This document shows positions 10,015 through 49,364 of a stretch of DNA of 64,000 nucleotides, in pieces. Source of the DNA: Chitinophagaceae bacterium (GTDB lineage: Bacteria; Bacteroidota; Bacteroidia; Chitinophagales; Chitinophagaceae); assembly GCA_004173235.1 (NCBI GenBank), contig SEAC01000020.1:84678-148677 (forward strand). The letters are read 5' to 3'. Every line of letters starts with the position of its first letter. The first letter of the stretch is position 1. Position numbers and translations under genes: made by a program. The notes below the pieces were generated by a model. That model was given only the letters and a program-made list of their open reading frames with translations, had not been told where the DNA came from and did no database searches.

Positions 10015-10569
10015 ATGAGTAACGAACAAATCCAGCAGCAACTCCAGGAGCACTTCGGCGACACCGTCAAGGGTTTCGAGGAGTCTTACGGCATGCTGAC
10101 TTTCGAAGCGGAAACCGGACGGAACATTGACGTGCTCCGTTTTTTGTATGAGCAGGGCTTCCGTTTTCTTACCGATGTGACGGCCGTGCACTACCCGGCG
10201 TTTGCCGGCCGCGAGATCGCCGTGGTGTATCACCTGCACAACCTGGTGGACAACATCCGCATCCGCTTCAAAGTGTTTGCGCCCATAGCGAAGCCCGACG
10301 TGGCGAGCGCAACGGCTATTTTTGAAAGCGCCAACTGGCAGGAGCGAGAGGCCTACGATTTCTTTGGCGTCAACTTCACGGGCCACCCCAACCTGAAGCG
10401 GATCCAAAACGTTGAGGAGATGGACTACTTCCCGCTGCGCAAGGAGTTCCCGCTCGAAGACCAGACGCGCATCGATAAAGACGACGAGATGTTCGGTCGG
10501 GGCGGCTCGTTCGATTTCGGAAACCGCCAGGAAGACGGCTCGCCCGCGCAGCTGGCAAACAATGAGTAA
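10015..10569 (+). CDS. nuoC: NADH-quinone oxidoreductase subunit C
   Basis: ANWQEREAYDFFGVNFTGHPNLKRI, FPLRKEFPL; ATG 10015. Confidence 0.96.
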   Translation: MSNEQIQQQLQEHFGDTVKGFEESYGMLTFEAETGRNIDVLRFLYEQGFRFLTDVTAVHYPAFAGREIAVVYHLHNLVDNIRIRFKVFAPIAKPDVASATAIFESANWQEREAYDFFGVNFTGHPNLKRIQNVEEMDYFPLRKEFPLEDQTRIDKDDEMFGRGGSFDFGNRQEDGSPAQLANNE

Positions 10570-10570
10570 T

Positions 10571-10595
10571 GCCCTTCGACTCCGCTCAGGGCGAC
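10571..10595. repeat. REP-like palindrome (reverse complement GTCGCCCTGAGCGGAGTCGAAGGGC)
   Basis: GCCCT...AGGGC stem with an internal loop and a terminal GAC/GTC tag. Confidence 0.7.
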
Positions 10596-10663
10596 AAGCC
10601 CTCCGCAGGGTCAAGGAGTAAGAATAAGTTTAAACGGTGAAGCCGGAATTTTGGATGAAAGCC

Positions 10664-10691
10664 ATTCACGATTCACGATTCACGATTCACG
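10664..10691 (+). repeat. Perfect heptamer tandem repeat (ATTCACG)4
   Basis: Four exact copies ending 6 nt before the nuoD ATG. Confidence 0.95.
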
Positions 10692-10697
10692 ATAACA

Positions 10698-11933
10698 ATG
10701 GCCACAACAAATCCGCATTCCCACATCCCGCTTCCGGAAGGAGCGCTTGAGAAGGAAACGACGACCATCAACCTCGGCCCCACGCACCCGGCCACGCACG
10801 GCGTGTTCCAGAACATCGTGGAGCTCGATGGCGAAACCGTGGTGTCGGCCGAGCAGACCATCGGCTATATCCACCGGGCCTTCGAAAAGATCGCCGAGCG
10901 CCGCCCGCTTTACCAGATCACGCCGCTGACCGACCGCCTCAACTACTGCTCGGCGCCCATCAACAACATGGGCTGGCATATGACCTGCGAAAAGCTTCTG
11001 GGCATCCAAACGCCGAAGCGCGTAGATTATCTCCGCGTGATCATCATGGAACTGGCCCGCATCGCCGATCACATCATCTGCAACTCCGTGATCGGGGTAG
11101 ACACCGGCGCTTTCACCGGCTTCCTCTACGTGATGCAGTACCGCGAACTCATCTACGAGATCTGGGAAGAAGTGTGCGGCTCGCGCCTCACCACCAACAT
11201 CGGCCGCATCGGTGGCTTCGAGCGCGACTTCAACAACATCGCTTTTACCAAGCTGGAAAAATTCCTTGCCGAATTCCCCGACGTACTGCGGGAGTTCGAT
11301 AGCCTCTTCACGCGCAACCGCATTTTCATGGACCGCACCATCGGCGCGGGCCCCATTGGAGCGGAGCGCGCCCTCAACTACGGCTTCACCGGTCCCAACC
11401 TGCGTGCAGCGGGTGTGGATTACGATGTGCGCGTGCATTCGCCCTACTGCTCTTACCAGGACTTCGAGTTCAGCATTCCCACCGGCACCACCGGCGACTG
11501 CTACGACCGCTTCCTGGTGCGCAACGGCGAAATGTGGGAGTCGATCTCCATCGTGCGCCAGGCCTACCAGAAGCTCCAGGACATAAAGGGCGCGGATGCA
11601 TCGGTGTACCACGCCGACGTGCCCGAGTATTACCTCCCCGACAAGAAAGATGTGTACACGAAGATGGAAGCGCTGATCTACCACTTCAAGATCGTCATGG
11701 GCGAGGTTAATATACCGCCGGGCGAAGTATACCACAGCGTGGAAGGCGCCAACGGCGAGCTGGGCTTCTACCTCATCTCCGATGGTGGCCGCAGCCCGTA
11801 CCGCCTGCACTTCCGCCGTCCCTGCTTCGTATACTACCAGGCCTACGAAGAACTGGTAAAAGGGGGCATGTTGTCCGACGCCATCATCACGATGTCGTCG
11901 CTCAACCTGATCGCCGGCGAAATGGATGGGTAA
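10698..11933 (+). CDS. nuoD: NADH-quinone oxidoreductase subunit D
   Basis: NLGPTHPATHG, GYIHRAFEK, DRLNY, EGANGELGFY, IAGEMD. Confidence 0.97.
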   Translation: MATTNPHSHIPLPEGALEKETTTINLGPTHPATHGVFQNIVELDGETVVSAEQTIGYIHRAFEKIAERRPLYQITPLTDRLNYCSAPINNMGWHMTCEKLLGIQTPKRVDYLRVIIMELARIADHIICNSVIGVDTGAFTGFLYVMQYRELIYEIWEEVCGSRLTTNIGRIGGFERDFNNIAFTKLEKFLAEFPDVLREFDSLFTRNRIFMDRTIGAGPIGAERALNYGFTGPNLRAAGVDYDVRVHSPYCSYQDFEFSIPTGTTGDCYDRFLVRNGEMWESISIVRQAYQKLQDIKGADASVYHADVPEYYLPDKKDVYTKMEALIYHFKIVMGEVNIPPGEVYHSVEGANGELGFYLISDGGRSPYRLHFRRPCFVYYQAYEELVKGGMLSDAIITMSSLNLIAGEMDG

Positions 11934-43556: not shown

Positions 43557-45833
43557 CTAGTATTGATATTTCTTACCCTGTTCGATCAACAATGACGGCC
43601 AGAAAGAAGGATTGATGATGTACACGATCTCGCGTTTGAACTTGTGTATAAATCCTTTTAAAAGAGGCATGTTGTAGTTGAAATTGTAGATATAGTGAGG
43701 GGTGTCATCAGATATCCTCTTAACGCCAAGGAATCCGTGCCAAAGTAGCAAGTCGACAACTTTGGCTGTTAGTCCCTGTGGCGGAACTACTTCTTCTAAC
43801 AAATTAGTTAGTTTATTTTCAGAAAGTTCCGGCTCAGAAGCGATAAACGTGTAGAGAATGTTTTCCGCCTCAGGCAGCACATCTCGGATTTCGTAGTTGA
43901 TATCCGTCAACAGGTCAGTTGAGTAAGAGCGAAAGCCTTTCTCAATGTCATCCGCTTCAATTTTGATATGATTTAAGTTCACTGCAAAGCCTTTGCATTG
44001 GTTGATGATATTGATCAAAAATCGTGGCCTCATTAAAGATCGCTCGATCAGGTACTGAGAGGTCTCTTCTCCCTTATAATGACTGACACAGATTTTTCTC
44101 CAAATGTTTTCGAAAGTGTCTGTTTCGATTTCCAAACTTGAAACAATTCTCAGTCTTAGTATTTCACGCAATAGATCTGGATCTACCCAGTCAATGAGTT
44201 CTTTAGCTTCTTTTTGTCGATCCGATGTTTTCTCCACCAACAATTCATAAACGTCGTTTCTCAAGAAGAGTATAGGGTACAAATCAATTCTCTCTTTGCT
44301 CAGACTCCTTTGTATGTTCCGCAACGCATCTATTAGCGTTCTCATAATTAAGAAGTCTTCATGTTGTAATCCCGATGAAGGCCAACCCTTATCGATATTG
44401 TCAAGTAGAAGCCAAACTTTATCCTTGTGTTTCAAATAATTAACCAAGTCATTTCTTAATGCAGAGATGTCTGACTTGTGCAGCAGATTCGTTATCTCTG
44501 GGATTGAAAGCCTAATGTTAGTGGACTGTCCAAATTTGATTTTATATGAGCTCGTCAAATTGTCCATGAGCTTTGACATTCTCTCAGAAAAATCACCTTC
44601 AGTTAAATAATGCTCTTTTTTATAGCTTTCTGCTAAAGCTCGATAGGGTTCGAATAAGTTCGTATCAATTTTATGCCTGCTTTTGTCATTTTCGATAACC
44701 CGGTGACAAATTTCTAGTAAAAGGATGTACTCCCAAAATGCTGTTATAGTATGACTCAGTGTGCCTTCCTGCAAATATTGCAGAATCTGTTCTTTGAACT
44801 TGATAAGTTTGTAGCCCTCTGGCTTGAGATCTAAAACGATGTTTTTGCTTTTGCTTCTTTCTTTGTCACGTATTTGAAGAAAGATTGCAGACTTACCGGA
44901 CCCCTTTCGACCAACAACCAATTGAACCTCTCCCCTCAAAGCTCGATTAAAAGCATCGGTCTTAAGATAGTAGCCTTGCAGGGTCTTCATTTCATTCTCG
45001 GCTGAGGAAGAGCCGAAATCAAGCTTTTGTAAAATGGTAGTGTCCCTAGACGTTTCGTAGGAATGTCCGTCTTGGAAGGCTTCAACAACCTTCGCTGCAA
45101 ATTCTGCAACGATTGTGTCGATATCATCAAAGTTGTAATAAACGTTTACAAAATCCCGATAGTCAATTGGCACGGGATCGTCACCATGTTGTAGGACGCA
45201 AACTGCTTTTTCCATTCCGTGGGCGAGCCCAAGAATGAATGCTGCTCGTAGGTTATGAATTTTATGATCAGTTGTTTCTTTCGATAGGAGAGATACTAGC
45301 ACGCCGTACGATTGTGAGACCTGATTGATGGCATCATTAGCTGATAGTCGTGGCGTTTCGTTTGGGTCGAAGCTCCTATATATGTACCGAGCCTTCTTTA
45401 TCCTAGAAGTAATCCTAGTTGCGTAATCTGTCTTGAATTTCTGTTCTAAGATGTACAAGGGTGCTTTGTTGTTTAGTTTTGGGGCATCTCCCCTGAGGGC
45501 ATTAGTTTTTGAATGTAAGAGTACCTTATAGAGTTCATCTGAGTTATTATATTCTAGATACCCGATAGTGTCAAAAATTCCGACCTCCGCGATCTTAGGA
45601 TCCATTTCAATAATCGCCTTGTTCTTTACAAGGAGAACTTTTTTGCCTTTACCAATTGCATATCCGACTTCGTAGGTGACGTTAAAATTCAAAGCCGTTA
45701 TGTCAGCAACAAAGGAATCCTCTTGATTGATCGCATCCTGAATACTGGAGATAATGAAAGCGCCAACTATGTCCAACTCCTTCCAAGACCTGATTTTCTG
45801 GTCCAGTCCATTGTATTTTTGAACAGCACTCAA
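43557..45833 (-). CDS. NDT/TIR-like domain(s) fused to a FunZ/Sll1717-like P-loop ATPase; probably 5'-truncated; candidate defence protein
   Basis: ADITALNFNVTYEVGYAIG, GSSSAENE, VVGRKGSGKS (Walker A), WLLLDNIDK (Walker B), FLRND, RPR; AT-rich codons; only a TTG start, with an in-frame stop at 45840-45842. Confidence 0.8.
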   Translation of the reverse strand: MSAVQKYNGLDQKIRSWKELDIVGAFIISSIQDAINQEDSFVADITALNFNVTYEVGYAIGKGKKVLLVKNKAIIEMDPKIAEVGIFDTIGYLEYNNSDELYKVLLHSKTNALRGDAPKLNNKAPLYILEQKFKTDYATRITSRIKKARYIYRSFDPNETPRLSANDAINQVSQSYGVLVSLLSKETTDHKIHNLRAAFILGLAHGMEKAVCVLQHGDDPVPIDYRDFVNVYYNFDDIDTIVAEFAAKVVEAFQDGHSYETSRDTTILQKLDFGSSSAENEMKTLQGYYLKTDAFNRALRGEVQLVVGRKGSGKSAIFLQIRDKERSKSKNIVLDLKPEGYKLIKFKEQILQYLQEGTLSHTITAFWEYILLLEICHRVIENDKSRHKIDTNLFEPYRALAESYKKEHYLTEGDFSERMSKLMDNLTSSYKIKFGQSTNIRLSIPEITNLLHKSDISALRNDLVNYLKHKDKVWLLLDNIDKGWPSSGLQHEDFLIMRTLIDALRNIQRSLSKERIDLYPILFLRNDVYELLVEKTSDRQKEAKELIDWVDPDLLREILRLRIVSSLEIETDTFENIWRKICVSHYKGEETSQYLIERSLMRPRFLINIINQCKGFAVNLNHIKIEADDIEKGFRSYSTDLLTDINYEIRDVLPEAENILYTFIASEPELSENKLTNLLEEVVPPQGLTAKVVDLLLWHGFLGVKRISDDTPHYIYNFNYNMPLLKGFIHKFKREIVYIINPSFWPSLLIEQGKKYQY

Positions 45834-46173: not shown

Positions 46174-46446
46174 GGTTGAGCGAAGGTTGTGTGGGGTAGC
46201 GGCAAAGTCGGGCGGGGGTAGGCCTCCGGCATACGTGGTTGTGCCGTCGTTGCGCGTGGTTATGGCTCCGTCGTTCGGGGTTGCGCCTTCGCTCTGCGGG
46301 GTTATGGCTCCGTCGTTTGGGGTTGCGCCTTCGCTCTGCGGGGTTATGGCATCGTCGTTTGTGGTTGGGGCTCCGTGGTATGCGGTTTTGCCACCGTTGC
46401 GCGGGGTTGAAGCATCGGTGGAAGCCAGTGTGCCACCGTTGCAGGT
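46174..46446 (+). repeat. Degenerate 21-bp tandem array (about 13 units; one near-exact 42-bp duplication)
   Basis: Most units start GGTT/GGGT every 21 nt; GGTTGCGCCTTCGCTCTGCGG at 46279 and 46321; GGTTATGGCTCCGTCGTT at 46258 and 46300. Confidence 0.85.
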
Positions 46447-46993: not shown

Positions 46994-47891
46994 CGGCGCC
47001 CATCACGCAGCTGCGGTGCGGGCTGCAGGAAGCATGTGGGATGCTCCATCGGGTGGCGTCATTCCGGTGCGCAGCACTGGGATCTAAAGGGGGGTGATGC
47101 TACAACGCGCAGCGGGGACATCAACGAGGGTGTTGCACTACGCGCAGCACCGGGATCTAAAGGAGGGTGATGCATTTTGCCAGGGGGAATGCCGGCCAGG
47201 GGCTTTCGTTCTATGCGTCCGCGGCGTCCCCGCGCGCATGCGTCGCCCTCATTCCCTTCGCGCATGCCTCTCCGTCATTCCCCGGCGCATGCGCGGCGCA
47301 TAGATCCCGGCGGCAAGCGCCGGGATGACGGCGCTGCGCGGGGCGCAAAGGGGCCCCATGACAGCAGTATCCTCTGTTCCGGGCATCCGGGTGATGGGGC
47401 CCCGTAAGTGCAGGATTTCCTCATTCCTGCGTCCAAGCCGCGAATGTTCCCCCGCGTGTGCGCGGCCATCATTCCCCCGGCGCATCCGCGGCGCATAGAT
47501 CCCGGCGGCAAGCGCCGGGATGACGGCCCTGCGCGGGGCGCAAAGGGGCCCCATGTCAGCAGTATCCTTTGTTCCGGGCATCCGGGCGATGGGGCCCCTT
47601 AGGTGCAGGACTTCCTCGTTCCTGCGTGCGAGTCGCGACTGTTCCCCTGAGTGTGCGGCGCCCTCATTCCCCCCGCGCATACGCGGCGCGTAGATCCCGG
47701 CGGCAAGCGCCGGGATGACGGCCCTGCGCGGGGCGCAAAGGGGCCCCATGGCAGCAGACCCCTCTGTTCCGGGCATCCGGGTGATGGGGCCCCGTAAGTG
47801 CAGGATTTCCTCGCGGAATACTGGGAATAATCCCATGAACTGCTGGCCAAATGCACAGTGCGGGCGACAATGTGGGTTGCACCTTAGATGG

Positions 47892-48233
47892 ATGAAAGGC
47901 GGATACACGTACATACTCACCAACTACCGGCGCACGGTCCTTTACGTCGGCGTCACCAGCGATCTGCGCCGCAGGTTGCGCGAGCACCGGGAACAACTTC
48001 ATCCTGGTTCTTTCACGGCGCGCTACCAGTGCTTCTACCTTGTCTACTTCGAACAGGTGCCCGGTATTGTTGCCGCTATCCAAAGGGAAAAGCAATTGAA
48101 AGAATGGCCCCGCCAACGCAAGCTGGAACTAATCCGCACCGTCAACCCGCACCTGTATTTCTACCACCCACACACCTTACTGCTCTCCGATACCCGAAAC
48201 CCCTTGTGCAGCCGCGGTGTATGCTGCCGTTAA
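47892..48233 (+). CDS. GIY-YIG nuclease family protein
   Basis: MKGGYTYILTN...LYVGVTSDLRRRLREH...FTARY...LVYFE...AIQREKQLK; ATG 47892. Confidence 0.92.
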   Translation: MKGGYTYILTNYRRTVLYVGVTSDLRRRLREHREQLHPGSFTARYQCFYLVYFEQVPGIVAAIQREKQLKEWPRQRKLELIRTVNPHLYFYHPHTLLLSDTRNPLCSRGVCCR

Positions 48234-48488
48234 ATGTGGTGGATGCTACATCGGGGGGCCTTCCTTTATAAAAAAAGGGGAGCCGTCATCCCGGCGCTTG
48301 CCGCCGGGATCTAAAGAGGATGAAGCCAGGATGCGCAGCGCCGGGATCTAATGGGGATGATGCACTCCGCGCCGCGCCGGGATGACGGGCGTCGCAGGAA
48401 CGCATCGGGCCCCATGACAGCATCTCCCTCTGTCCCGGCATCCGGGCGATGGGGCCCCGTTAGTGCAGGACCTCCTCGCGGAATACTA

Positions 48489-48950
48489 CGCGCAGCGCCG
48501 GGATCGAATGCTGATAATGCACTCCGCGCAACACGGGGATCTAAAGTGGAGGATGCAGTAAGCGCAACACCGGGATCTAAAGGGGAGGATACACTCCGCG
48601 CAGCACCGGGATGTAATGGGGCGTTGCATTGCGCGCAGTCGTTGGAGGTATGCAAAGGGGTACTTTCATACTGTCCATTGCGATTGTTCCCCCAACGCAG
48701 TCGCCGGTAGATCCCGGCGGCAAGCGCCGGGATGACGGCGCTGCGCGGGGCGCAAAGGGGCCCCATGACAGCATCTCCCTCTGTCCCAGCATCCGGGCGA
48801 TGGGGCCCCGTTAGTGCAGGACCTCCTCGCGGAATACTACGCGCAGCGCCGGGATCGAATGCTGATGATGCACTCCGCGCAACACCGGGATCAAAAGGGG
48901 AGGATGCAGTAAGCGCAACACCGGGATCTAAAGGGGAGGAAGTCTTGGCG
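48489..48950 (+). repeat. Two runs of degenerate 36-bp tandem repeats (further units at 47068-47175 and 48330-48380)
   Basis: CGCGCARCRCCGGGATCTAAAGGGGAGGATGCACTC-like units at 48489, 48525, 48561, 48597 and 48840, 48876, 48912. Confidence 0.85.
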
Positions 48951-49364
48951 CAGCGCCCGAGGAACAATGAAAGAGTTTCCATTGCCAGGCTTGTGCGGAC
49001 GCTACTGCCGGATCATGTGGTGGATGCTACATCGGGGGCCTTCCTTTAAAAAAAAAAGGGGAGCCGTCATCCCGGCGCTGCCGCCGGGATCTAAAGAGGA
49101 TGAAGCCAGGATGCGCAGCACCAGATGGAACCAAACAAAAAGCCGCCCCTCGCGGAACGGCCCTTCTATAGAGACCAAGATCTTTATCCCTTGCAGCTTT
49201 GAAGTACACTGCGGAAGCACTAAAAATAACGTTCGCGAGCCAACGGTGCGGGCCCAGGGGAACGAAAGCTGCTTTTGTGGGACGCAATGTTCCTGCACAG
49301 TGCGGCCACGGCACCCCGCGTGCTGCGTATGGCCCTGCGGTAATTTGCAGTCTCAAAGAAACCT

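What the first reader, a model, noticed from the sequence alone, without database searches (positions are those of the whole stretch)
47055..49119. GIY-YIG element with defined left and right ends, tandem end amplification and an adjacent empty copy
Seen: left end = REP (TAGATCCCGGCGGCAAGCGCCGGGATGACGG) + ~100 nt ending CCTCGCGGAATACT; right end = ATGTGGTGGATGCTACATCGGGG...+ inverted REP. The layout is: three 195-bp left-end units (47301, 47496, 47691), GIY-YIG gene, right end (48234-48339), partial left end (48370-48487), 36-mers, full left end (48708-48838), 36-mers, right end (49015-49119). In both complete pairs the CGTC tags face inward. The 48708-49119 unit has the same ends with the nuclease replaced by 36-bp repeats. 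Known: CGTC-tagged REP families are described and small GIY-YIG genes are common, but a GIY-YIG-driven mobilisation mechanism is not established to my knowledge. Inference: an autonomous element beside its non-autonomous derivative, with local amplification consistent with nick- or break-induced recombination.
Basis: partly seen in the sequence, partly recalled or inferred. Interest (0 to 1): 0.82.

Follow-up and report, generated by a model that had tools for sequence, protein, structure and literature searches.

The report
Ssn-type nuclease gene inside REP cluster
A small GIY-YIG nuclease gene sits in a 2.1-kb pile-up of its own hairpin repeats; this gene-plus-repeat partnership was published in 2025 (the Ssn nucleases and their SRM repeats), so the locus is a well-laid-out new example and not a new kind of mobile element.

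Summary
All the repeats, the GIY-YIG ORF (47892-48233) and the gene-less twin are at the stated coordinates.

The "REP" (CGTCAT-9 bp stem-5 nt loop-stem-C-TA) has the design of the NTS/SRM hairpins that Ssn-family GIY-YIG single-strand DNA nucleases bind and cut (Chenal et al. 2025). The protein is 54% identical to a Neisseria homologue flanked by NTS-like arrays.

The repeat family has at least 54-72 copies in this genome, mostly as about 165-nt inward-tag dimers and tandem arrays. It has none in 40 related genomes.

The two "ends" are not sharp element termini:
- The right-end module reaches 31 nt into the ORF tail.
- A third, diverged copy of that module lies at 47007-47156.
- One left-end copy is fused to a half-repeat through the shared hairpin arm.

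The gene-carrying unit is single-copy, and I found no target duplication, second insertion or empty site. This makes local REP-mediated duplication around an Ssn gene the best reading. Nuclease-driven mobility stays a hypothesis.

The assembly is a short-read metagenome bin, and one 195-bp unit could not be confirmed independently.

The parts
47007..47156 (+). R0: a diverged third copy of the right-end module. It has a degenerate tagged hairpin (CGTCATTCCGGTGCGCAGCACTGGGATCTA, 47057-47086) and two half-site units, and starts 14 nt after the stop of the upstream membrane-protein ORF.
   Evidence: Local alignment to 48208-48383 scores 113; shuffles give mean 30, maximum 58. Coordinates.
47227..47293 (+). 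26-bp repeats (2.6 copies) containing CGTCATTCCCC half-tags, leading into the first left-end unit.
   Evidence: TRF; family D7.
47275..47822 (+). Three tandem 195-bp left-end units (L1-L3). The third is cut short at CCTCGCGGAATACT (47809-47822).
   Evidence: TRF period 195, 2.8 copies, 91% matches; family D2. Unit 1 and the end of unit 3 appear in independent Logan contigs at single-copy depth. The interior of unit 2 is not recovered.
47301..47330 (-). Tagged hairpin (SRM/CGTC-REP) read on the minus strand, with the tag on the gene side. Identical copies lie at 47496-47525 and 47691-47720.
   Evidence: Exact matches. DNA fold: 9-bp stem, 5-nt loop, -16.2 kcal/mol, z = -4.2.
47740..47793 (.). 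Central long hairpin GGGGCCCCAT...ATGGGGCCCC of the left-end module. Copies also lie at 47350-47403, 47545-47598, 48407-48458 and 48757-48809.
   Evidence: Regex coordinates. Fold of 47691-47822: 10-bp stem, z = -3.4. Diverged relatives on contigs C1 (two copies) and C17.
47892..48233 (+). ssn-like GIY-YIG gene of 113 aa. The catalytic core covers residues 1-88. The last ~27 residues are unique to this protein, and the last 31 nt are encoded by the right-end repeat module.
   Evidence: Pfam PF01541, E = 2e-14. Y7, Y18, R28, H32, E66 and N85 are conserved. 54% identity to a Neisseria MAG homologue, E = 1e-26. Homologues are 93-100 aa and cover 71-80% of the query. Tail homology to 48990-49014.
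48203..48373 (+). R1: right-end module. It contains a small A/T-loop hairpin, the tagged hairpin 48284-48313 (tag on the gene side) and two 36-nt half-site units.
   Evidence: (D8, D9).
48374..48487 (-). L4: partial left-end module that lacks the outer hairpin arm. It is joined to the preceding half-site through the shared arm GCGCCGGGAT, which marks a recombination or template-switch junction.
   Evidence: Sequence reading and alignment.
48485..48616 (+). 36-bp half-site array A (3.7 copies). Each unit is loop + 3' arm + TCTAAAG tail of the hairpin. No stable fold.
   Evidence: TRF; fold z = 0.2; register printed.
48690..48838 (-). L5: full left-end module of the gene-less twin (hairpin 48708-48737, central hairpin 48757-48809).
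   Evidence: 91% identical to L3 over about 150 nt and 97-99% identical to L4.
48836..48940 (+). 36-bp half-site array B (2.9 copies). It is part of a 351-bp segmental duplication: 48407-48589 versus 48758-48940, 97% identity.
   Evidence: (D4). The shared Logan contig has twice the depth (117 against about 57).
48990..49122 (+). R2: right-end module of the gene-less twin. Its hairpin (49065-49093) has a 1-nt loop deletion. It keeps about 25 nt homologous to the ORF tail and ends inside a half-site.
   Evidence: Alignment to 48203-48342, score 191; coordinates.

Best explanation
This is an Ssn-family GIY-YIG single-strand DNA nuclease gene embedded in a BIME-like cluster of its own cognate hairpin repeats. 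These repeats are the SRMs of Chenal et al. 2025, which are the CGTC-tagged REPs of Di Nocera et al. 2013.

By homology, the 113-aa protein should bind the folded hairpin on the strand that reads CGTCAT-stem-loop-stem-C and nick a few nucleotides 5' of the tag (inferred).

In this genome the repeat's usual form is a roughly 165-nt inward-tag dimer: hairpin, central long hairpin, inverted hairpin. These dimers are often tandemly arrayed. Here the ssn gene lies inside such a dimer.

The three 195-bp units, the 351-bp duplication, the half-site arrays and the gene-less twin were made locally, by recombination or template switching between hairpin arms. The junction is shown. Stimulation by nuclease nicks at replication forks is inferred. 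The twin is a local duplicate of the shell, not a transposed derivative.

Whether the nuclease also spread the ~70 dispersed copies is plausible but not shown.
For: Hairpin design and protein:
- The hairpin has the determinants mapped for NTS: GTC before an AT-initiated palindrome and a C right after it (compared).
- The protein has an intact GIY-YIG core and is 54% identical to a Neisseria homologue that lies in NTS-like arrays.

Gene-repeat link:
- It is the only GIY-YIG gene in the assembly with this repeat beside it.
- The three RAYT-like genes carry other REPs.
- The exact pattern occurs 54 times here, against 0 for the reversed control and 0 in 40 relatives.

Properties of the repeat family:
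- Compensatory stem changes: 31 cells, with 0 of 500 shuffles reaching the observed score.
- Extragenic bias: 44 of 54 copies lie outside long ORFs, which cover 86% of the genome.
- 19 inward dimers with spacings of 86-100 nt, plus tandem arrays elsewhere in the genome.

Local duplication:
- The junction through the shared arm at 48374.
- The same modules occur in other combinations: R0 stands alone and the R modules include the ORF tail.
- Repeated ends also occur at other ssn loci: at least 13 of 86 loci have two or more same-orientation tagged hairpins on one side (examples L036, L009).
Against: - No biochemical data exist for this protein.
- The published degenerate SRM search string does not match this hairpin, because the stem is 1 bp longer.
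- The tags face the gene here, whereas most homologous loci have tags facing away.
- The C-terminal tail is atypical, so the enzyme could be impaired.
- No transcript was seen in the one metatranscriptome.
- The copy number of the arrays rests on a short-read bin.
Confidence: 0.62

Rival explanations
1. This is an active transposon pair. The L-ssn-R unit is an autonomous element whose GIY-YIG nuclease cuts at the tagged hairpins. The gene-less twin and the ~165-nt dimers scattered through the genome are non-autonomous derivatives mobilised in trans, analogous to MITEs or REPINs.
For: - The gene-carrying unit, the twin and the dispersed dimers share polarity and three-part build: hairpin, central long hairpin, inverted hairpin.
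- There is one gene copy and about 70 gene-less copies.
- The expansion is lineage-specific: 54 copies here against 0 in 40 relatives.
- Tagged hairpins are 17-fold enriched around homologues in many phyla.
- The authors of the Ssn paper note the insertion-sequence-like layout.
Against: - The gene, the R module and the full-length L module occur only in this cluster. Only diverged L fragments are found elsewhere.
- The twin is adjacent and part of a 351-bp tandem duplication.
- Module boundaries are not fixed.
- No target-site duplication is seen; the terminal TAG/CTA is part of the inverted repeat.
- With tags inward, cuts 5' of each tag would fall inside the unit and on opposite strands. That would release neither the hairpins nor a single-strand circle.
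- Two metagenome scans for the R module and the exact hairpin found nothing elsewhere.
Confidence: 0.2
2. This is an assembly artefact. Part of the tandem structure (number of 195-bp units, order of modules, the twin) was created by a short-read assembler threading through near-identical repeats.
For: - The source is a phyllosphere metagenome bin.
- An independent assembly of the same run breaks at every hairpin.
- That assembly holds nothing for 47529-47689 and 47736-47781.
- 10 of 82 contig ends stop in this repeat.
Against: - The copies differ by 3-27%, so most can be placed uniquely.
- Independent contigs confirm these stretches at single-copy depth: the flank into unit 1, unit 1 into the hairpin of unit 2, the end of unit 3 through the gene into R1, R1 into L4, the spacer into L5, and R2 into the flank.
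- The 351-bp duplication shows double depth.
Confidence: 0.1
3. This is chance neighbourhood. An unrelated small GIY-YIG gene happens to lie in a REP-rich intergenic region, and the repeats are maintained by another enzyme or by none.
For: - The genome has three RAYT-like genes.
- It has other REP families.
- One array of the repeat lies 2.8 kb from a RAYT gene on contig C36.
Against: - None of the RAYT genes is flanked by this hairpin.
- The gene family is experimentally tied to exactly this hairpin design.
- The enrichment next to the gene holds in 86 loci.
- The other small GIY-YIG paralogues carry their own, different flanking repeats.
Confidence: 0.05

Closest known systems
Ssn nucleases with NTS/SRM repeats (SsnA of Neisseria meningitidis and homologues; Chenal et al. 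2025, Nat Commun 16:2388, PMC11893778)
   Same: - A single-domain GIY-YIG protein with the conserved Tyr/Tyr/Glu residues.
- The gene is flanked on both sides by a hairpin repeat of the form CGTCAT + AT-initiated palindrome + C.
- The same repeat is present in tens of extragenic copies and clusters.
- The protein is 54% identical to a Neisseria homologue.
   Different: - The stem is 1 bp longer, so the published degenerate SRM string misses it.
- The tags face the gene instead of away from it, which is the majority arrangement in 86 loci.
- A long central hairpin lies between repeat and gene.
- The protein has a unique 27-residue C-terminal tail.
- The host looks like a Bacteroidota-type bacterium from a leaf-surface metagenome, and nothing is known of its competence.
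- Activity is untested.
CGTC-tagged REPs (Di Nocera, De Gregorio and Rocco 2013, BMC Genomics 14:522, PMC3733652)
   Same: - A CGTC/TGTC tag.
- An 8-9 bp stem starting with A-T pairs, a 4-5 nt loop and a short tail.
- Mostly organised as 'HH' dimers. I read this as tags facing each other, which is my inference about their terms.
- Found in Bacteroidetes, among other phyla.
- No RAYT gene beside them (one search compared).
   Different: That paper found no dedicated enzyme. Here, as in the 2025 Ssn paper, a GIY-YIG gene sits between two copies. In addition, this family has a conserved central hairpin and half-site arrays on the tail side.
REP/REPIN elements with RAYT genes (REPtrons; Y1/HUH transposase relatives of IS200/IS605) and E. 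coli BIMEs
   Same: - One enzyme gene flanked by the repeat that is dispersed as inverted doublets.
- The repeats cluster into mosaic arrays.
- Recognition is of hairpins in single-stranded DNA.
   Different: - The enzyme fold and chemistry differ: GIY-YIG hydrolytic nicking with no covalent tyrosine intermediate.
- The tag differs: CGTC rather than GTAG.
- The RAYT-like genes of this genome have their own ATAGCG-type REPs.
Free-standing GIY-YIG homing endonucleases (I-TevI, Seg proteins of T-even phages)
   Same: A GIY-YIG catalytic domain, and a selfish-gene logic could apply: gene present in one copy of a site and absent in the neighbouring copy.
   Different: - Homing enzymes carry a separate DNA-binding domain and cut double-stranded target sites.
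- This protein is the catalytic domain alone.
- The 'empty' twin differs from the 'full' unit by a replacement (380 nt against 151 nt of half-sites), not by a clean insertion.

Membership tests
Ssn nuclease family (cd10448) with SRM repeats | Single-domain GIY-YIG protein of about 90-100 aa with the catalytic Tyr, Tyr and Glu | tested here: met
   PF01541, E = 2e-14, and no other domain. Y7, Y18 and E66 align with nearly invariant columns. The length is 113 aa because of a non-conserved tail.
Ssn nuclease family (cd10448) with SRM repeats | Placement in the cd10448 clade / homology to characterised SsnA | tested here: inconclusive
   CDD is not available here. As a proxy, the protein is 54% identical (E = 1e-26) to a Neisseria sp. 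MAG homologue that lies in NTS-like arrays. No direct comparison with N. meningitidis SsnA was possible.
Ssn nuclease family (cd10448) with SRM repeats | Gene flanked 5' and 3' by a tagged hairpin repeat (SRM) | tested here: met
   Identical hairpins lie 172 nt upstream (with two more further upstream) and 51 nt downstream.
Ssn nuclease family (cd10448) with SRM repeats | The repeat matches the published degenerate SRM string HGTCWYN(0-2)YYVSBRHN(0-5)WNVSBRGN(0-2)RNCYNB | tested here: not met
   There are 15 hits genome-wide and none in the cluster. The stem is 1 bp longer than the string allows. The mapped determinants (GTC before the palindrome, an AT-initiated palindrome, C after it) are all present.
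Ssn nuclease family (cd10448) with SRM repeats | The repeat is over-represented in the host genome | tested here: met
   54 exact-pattern copies against 0 for the reversed control, and 72 with one mismatch allowed.
Ssn nuclease family (cd10448) with SRM repeats | Strand-specific binding and cleavage of single-stranded DNA next to the repeat | not testable with these tools
   This needs purified protein and oligonucleotide substrates.
CGTC-tagged REP superfamily | CGTC/TGTC tag, 8-9 bp stem starting with A-T pairs, 4-5 nt loop, short tail, extragenic, dimers | tested here: met
   Position counts; fold; covariation; 44 of 54 copies outside long ORFs; 19 inward dimers.
Autonomous transposable element with non-autonomous derivatives | The full-length unit is present at more than one site, or shows a presence/absence polymorphism | tested here: not met
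   The gene and the R module occur only in this cluster. The exact protein is seen on one contig only. Two metagenome scans found nothing. Relatives are too distant for an empty-site test.
Autonomous transposable element with non-autonomous derivatives | Fixed termini and a target-site duplication | tested here: not met
   Module boundaries shift between copies. No direct repeat lies outside the dimer consensus.
REP-RAYT (REPtron) | A Y1/HUH transposase gene flanked by the repeat | tested here: not met
   Three PF01797 genes are present, and all have other REPs beside them.

The most novel reading that the evidence does not exclude
The inward-tag dimers are REPIN-like non-autonomous elements that this one Ssn nuclease has spread through the genome in a recent, species-specific burst (at least 54-72 copies against none in 40 relatives). 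The L-ssn-R unit, a dimer with the gene inside, is their master copy. Nuclease nicks at hairpins extruded on single-stranded DNA would both seed new copies and generate the tandem end and half-site arrays. If so, GIY-YIG enzymes would be a second, mechanistically distinct driver of REP propagation beside the RAYT tyrosine transposases.
Probability: 0.2. Interest if true: 0.75.

Novelty: new member of a known kind. Interest (0 to 1): 0.36.

Why it matters
Since 2013, CGTC-tagged REPs were thought to lack a dedicated enzyme. The 2025 Ssn paper tied them to a GIY-YIG single-strand nuclease but left open how the repeats multiply.

This locus adds a compact natural comparison:
- The same repeat shell occurs with and without the gene, side by side.
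- A recombination junction runs through a hairpin arm.
- The repeat expansion is species-specific and comes with a single cognate gene.

It also shows that the published SRM search string misses a Bacteroidota-type family, and that the gene can lie inside a repeat dimer as well as between outward-facing repeats.

The locus could serve as a substrate set for testing whether Ssn nicking causes repeat duplication or spread. On its own it establishes no new mechanism.

Tried and rejected
1. Empty-site test. The luciferase-like monooxygenase downstream has orthologues (63-69% identity) in nine congeners, but the neighbouring genes are not conserved within the 1.5-kb flanks held. No comparison was possible.
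2. Independent check of the assembly. Only Logan contigs of one short-read run hold the region, and there are no long reads. Unit 2 of the 195-bp array is not recovered.
3. Search for the right-end module and the exact hairpin in JGI metagenome contigs: no hits.
4. Known RNA families: none in 45.8-49.5 kb.
5. Sigma-70 promoter scan: nothing. Terminator-like sites are at the chance level.
6. NCBIfam, PADLOC and PDB by sequence: no informative hit for the nuclease.
7. RAYT as the partner enzyme: rejected, because all three RAYT-like genes have different REPs.
8. My first BLAST-based statement that the left end is wholly unique had to be softened. Gapped local alignment finds diverged copies of the hairpin plus central-hairpin module on contigs C1 and C17.
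9. Minus-strand ORFs through the repeats (224 and 223 aa) were considered and set aside as repeat-generated.
10. One search was a mistaken call with no content.
Full report
**Observation**

The region was read directly and analysed with the repeat tools and exact pattern searches.

- The 30-nt hairpin repeat TAGATCCCGGCGGCAAGCGCCGGGATGACG lies at 47301, 47496, 47691 and 48708.
- Its inverted form CGTCATCCCGGCGCTTGCCGCCGGGATCTA lies at 48284 and 49065. The 49065 copy has one loop base missing.
- A 195-bp tandem array spans 47275-47813 (2.8 copies, 91% matches).
- The left-end tail CCTCGCGGAATACT occurs three times, and the right-end start ATGTGGTGGATGCTACATCGGGG twice.
- There are two 36-bp arrays.
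- The ORF has a GIY-YIG domain (PF01541, E = 2e-14). The likely start is ATG 47892, giving 113 aa.
- As single-stranded DNA the repeat folds into a 9-bp stem with a 5-nt loop (z = -3.0 to -4.2).
- The left end contains a second, long hairpin with a 10-bp GGGGCCCCAT stem.
- The 36-mers do not fold (z = 0.2).

**Refined anatomy**

Gapped alignments and the pattern map show a mosaic of two module types rather than one element with sharp ends.

- R modules consist of about 80 nt starting GCAGC.GCGGTG...ATGTGG, then the hairpin with its tag on the left, then half-site units. There are three: R0 (47007-47156, about 70% identical, alone, 14 nt after the upstream gene's stop), R1 (48203-48373) and R2 (48990-49122).
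- L modules consist of a short lead, the hairpin with its tag on the right, the long central hairpin and a tail. There are five: L1-L3 in the 195-bp array, L4 (48374-48487, partial) and L5 (48690-48838).
- R1 begins inside the ORF. The last 31 nt of the gene align with the gene-less copy, so the protein's odd C-terminal tail is partly repeat-encoded.
- L4 has no outer arm. It is joined to the preceding half-site exactly through the arm GCGCCGGGAT, which the two orientations of the palindrome share. This is a visible recombination or template-switch junction.
- L4 plus its 36-mers and L5 plus its 36-mers form a 351-bp duplication at 97% identity.
- The 36-mers are the loop, 3' arm and tail of the hairpin, repeated head to tail.

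**The assembly**

The genome is a 3.76-Mb, 41-contig bin from a phyllosphere metagenome. Logan contigs of the source run break at every hairpin. They still confirm, without mismatches and at single-copy depth:

- the flank into L1;
- L1 into the hairpin of L2;
- the end of L3 through the gene into R1;
- R1 into L4;
- the spacer into L5;
- R2 into the downstream flank.

The duplicated 351-bp piece has double depth. Nothing is recovered for 47529-47689 and 47736-47781. The number of 195-bp units therefore rests on the original assembly alone. No long reads are available.

**What the repeat and the gene are**

Notes from earlier agents of this scan pointed to two papers, which I read.

Chenal et al. 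2025 (PMC11893778) show the following:
- Small single-domain GIY-YIG proteins (Ssn, cd10448) bind hairpin repeats (NTS, CGTCATTCCCGCGMAVGCGGGAATCYRG; more generally SRM) on single-stranded DNA only, on one strand only, and cut a few nucleotides 5' of the repeat.
- The three bases before the palindrome matter for cutting, and the C after it matters for binding.
- 71% of ssn homologues have an SRM nearby, and 42% have one on both sides.
- Mobility of NTS-ssnA-NTS is raised only as a hypothesis.

Di Nocera et al. 2013 (PMC3733652) defined CGTC-tagged REPs. These have 8-9 bp stems starting with A-T pairs and 4-5 nt loops, occur mostly as 'HH' dimers, are present in Bacteroidetes, and had no dedicated transposase.

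The repeat here has exactly that design: CGTC, then A-T, then CCCGG.., a 3-5 nt loop, the complementary arm, then C-T-A.

The protein keeps the nearly invariant residues, including Y7, Y18 and E66. It is 54% identical (E = 1e-26) to a homologue in a Neisseria MAG that sits in arrays of NTS-like hairpins.

The published degenerate SRM string does not match this hairpin, because the stem is one base pair longer. That is a limit of the search string, not of the resemblance.

**The repeat family in this genome**

- The pattern GTCATCCCG-N11-CGGGAWCT occurs 54 times (27 on each strand), against 0 for the reversed control and 0 in all 40 related genomes, 24 of them congeners.
- With one mismatch allowed there are 72 copies. 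26 of these lie within 600 nt of contig ends, and 10 of 82 contig ends stop in the repeat, so the true number is higher.
- Stem subfamilies (GGTGC/GCACC, GGCAC/GTGCC, GCTGC/GCAGC, GGCG/CGCC) keep pairing through double changes: 31 cells, with 0 of 500 shuffles reaching the score.
- 44 of 54 copies lie outside ORFs of 200 aa or more, although such ORFs cover 86% of the genome.
- The usual unit is a roughly 165-nt dimer with the two tags facing each other 86-100 nt apart around a conserved central hairpin GGCGCGGCC...GGCCGCGCC (19 cases).
- These dimers often stand in tandem arrays, on C14:27-490, C22:302088-302747, C21:96022-96405, C10:1659-2097 and both ends of C19.
- Half-site arrays on the tail side of a full hairpin recur on C36, C41, C1, C10 and C32.
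- Tandem amplification and half-site arrays are therefore habits of the whole family, not peculiarities of the gene's ends.

**Link between gene and repeat**

- Of nine GIY-YIG matches in the assembly, only this gene has the GTCATCCCG hairpin beside it.
- The paralogues have other flanking repeats. For example, the one on C10 has the CGTCATTGCGAGG type, whose motif CCTCGCAATGACG occurs 19 times in the genome.
- Three RAYT-like genes are present, but each has ATAGCG-type REPs.
- The closest relatives of the protein are only about 60% identical, and the exact protein is seen on one contig. No congener has an orthologue above 52% identity.
- Gene allele and repeat family are therefore both private to this species.
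- In 86 homologous loci from many phyla, perfect [CT]GTC-tagged hairpins are 17 times denser within 400 nt of the gene than further away (2.34 against 0.14 per kb).

**What differs from the usual cassette**

In those 86 loci the tags mostly face away from the gene. Upstream copies are on the gene strand 52:15, and downstream copies are on the opposite strand 67:27. I checked this by eye in L034, L036, L066, L055, L009 and L126.

Here both tags face the gene, and a long hairpin lies between the left repeat and the gene. In other words, the gene lies inside a dimer of the kind that is scattered, without a gene, through the genome.

The gene-less twin (tags 330 nt apart) and one cluster on C1 (199 nt) are the only other inward pairs with a large interior. 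Diverged copies of the L module, with the same GGGGCCCCAT...GCATCCGGGTGATGGGGCCCC hairpin, exist on C1 (twice) and C17.

**Mechanism**

- Shown: the repeat is a conserved DNA hairpin with a fixed tag. It is extragenic, dimeric, arrayed and species-specific. The gene is intact in its catalytic core. Modules have been duplicated and rejoined locally through hairpin arms.
- Inferred from the family: the protein binds the hairpin on the CGTCAT strand in single-stranded DNA and nicks 5' of the tag.
- Inferred further: such nicks at replication forks or during repair favour slippage, template switching and unequal exchange between nearby copies. This would give tandem ends and half-site arrays.
- In support of the last point, at least 13 of the 86 other loci also have two or more same-orientation copies on one side. 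In L036 and L009 the duplicated ends include the first or last bases of the gene.
- With tags inward, the expected cuts fall inside the unit on opposite strands. That does not give an obvious excision route, which speaks against a simple cut-out or peel-off transposition of this unit.

**Verdict on mobility**

The dispersed dimers must have spread somehow, and the Ssn gene is the only candidate enzyme linked to them. Nothing here, however, shows movement of the L-ssn-R unit:

- The gene-carrying unit is single-copy.
- No target duplication is seen.
- No usable empty site exists in relatives.
- Nothing turned up in metagenome scans.
- The adjacent twin is best explained as a local duplicate.

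I rate the local-duplication-around-an-Ssn-gene reading at about 0.6 and an active autonomous/non-autonomous pair at about 0.2. Assembly inflation of part of the structure gets about 0.1, and chance neighbourhood about 0.05.

**Novelty**

The partnership is published (2025) and the repeat class was described in 2013. This locus is a new member with an unusual layout: the gene sits inside an inward-tag dimer with a gene-less twin beside it.

Its value is as a clean substrate set for testing whether Ssn nicking drives repeat duplication or spread. It also shows that the published SRM string under-detects this family.

Noticed in passing
G000 contig C1 (L129): 297-749 and 10434-10927, outside the window: Two roughly 460-bp clusters of the same tagged hairpins, with GGGGCCCC-type central hairpins and 47-nt half-site arrays, form inverted repeats of 92-96% identity. 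They bracket 9.7 kb of lower-GC DNA that encodes a 1387-aa NACHT/STAND NTPase, an HNH-HIT protein and an HNH_2 protein. This looks like a defence-type cargo flanked by SRM clusters, reminiscent of NTS clusters around genes in Neisseria.
   Followed up: partly
window 43557-45833 (minus strand): A 758-aa ORF in a low-GC island (38-45% against 57-67% around it) lies just upstream of the cluster. It has only weak P-loop/AAA hits and a weak PADLOC hit (PDC-M28C). It is probably a horizontally acquired NTPase gene.
   Followed up: partly
window 46212-46367: A 42-bp (21-bp sub-period) tandem array, unrelated to the hairpin family, lies between the low-GC gene and the membrane-protein ORF.
   Followed up: no
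G000 C25:95022-95366, C36:3173-3517, C34:40688-41026: Three RAYT/IS200-like Y1 transposase genes each have their own ATAGCGGCGCG-type or GTAG-type REPs beside them. The genome therefore hosts at least two independent REP-enzyme systems.
   Followed up: partly
G000 C10:169795-170049, C12:120093-120353, C16:87071-87289: Other small GIY-YIG paralogues carry different flanking repeats.
- C10: CGTC(A/G)TTGCGA-tagged hairpins with tags outward. The motif CCTCGCAATGACG occurs 19 times in the genome.
- C12: a 21-nt inverted repeat.
- C16: the same CGTCCCGCACGGAGTGCGGG hairpin in direct orientation on both sides.
   Followed up: partly
whole genome: The degenerate SRM search string published by Chenal et al. 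gives only 15 hits and misses all ~70 copies of this family, because the stem is 1 bp longer. Published SRM counts may therefore under-report such families.
   Followed up: yes
L036:2880-3500 and L009:1780-1950 (Bacteroidota homologue loci): Tandem duplication of cassette ends that includes the first or last few codons of the ssn gene also occurs at other loci. End amplification therefore looks like a recurrent trait of these cassettes.
   Followed up: partly
window 49137-49166 (minus strand): A strong terminator-like hairpin (13 pairs followed by a T run) lies on the minus strand, just right of the cluster and upstream of the plus-strand monooxygenase gene. No minus-strand gene is evident to its right.
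   Followed up: no
window 48509-48661: A 153-nt contig from the metatranscriptome of the same sample matches the 36-mer array and spacer exactly, at low depth. No RNA contig covers the nuclease gene. DNA carry-over cannot be excluded.
   Followed up: no
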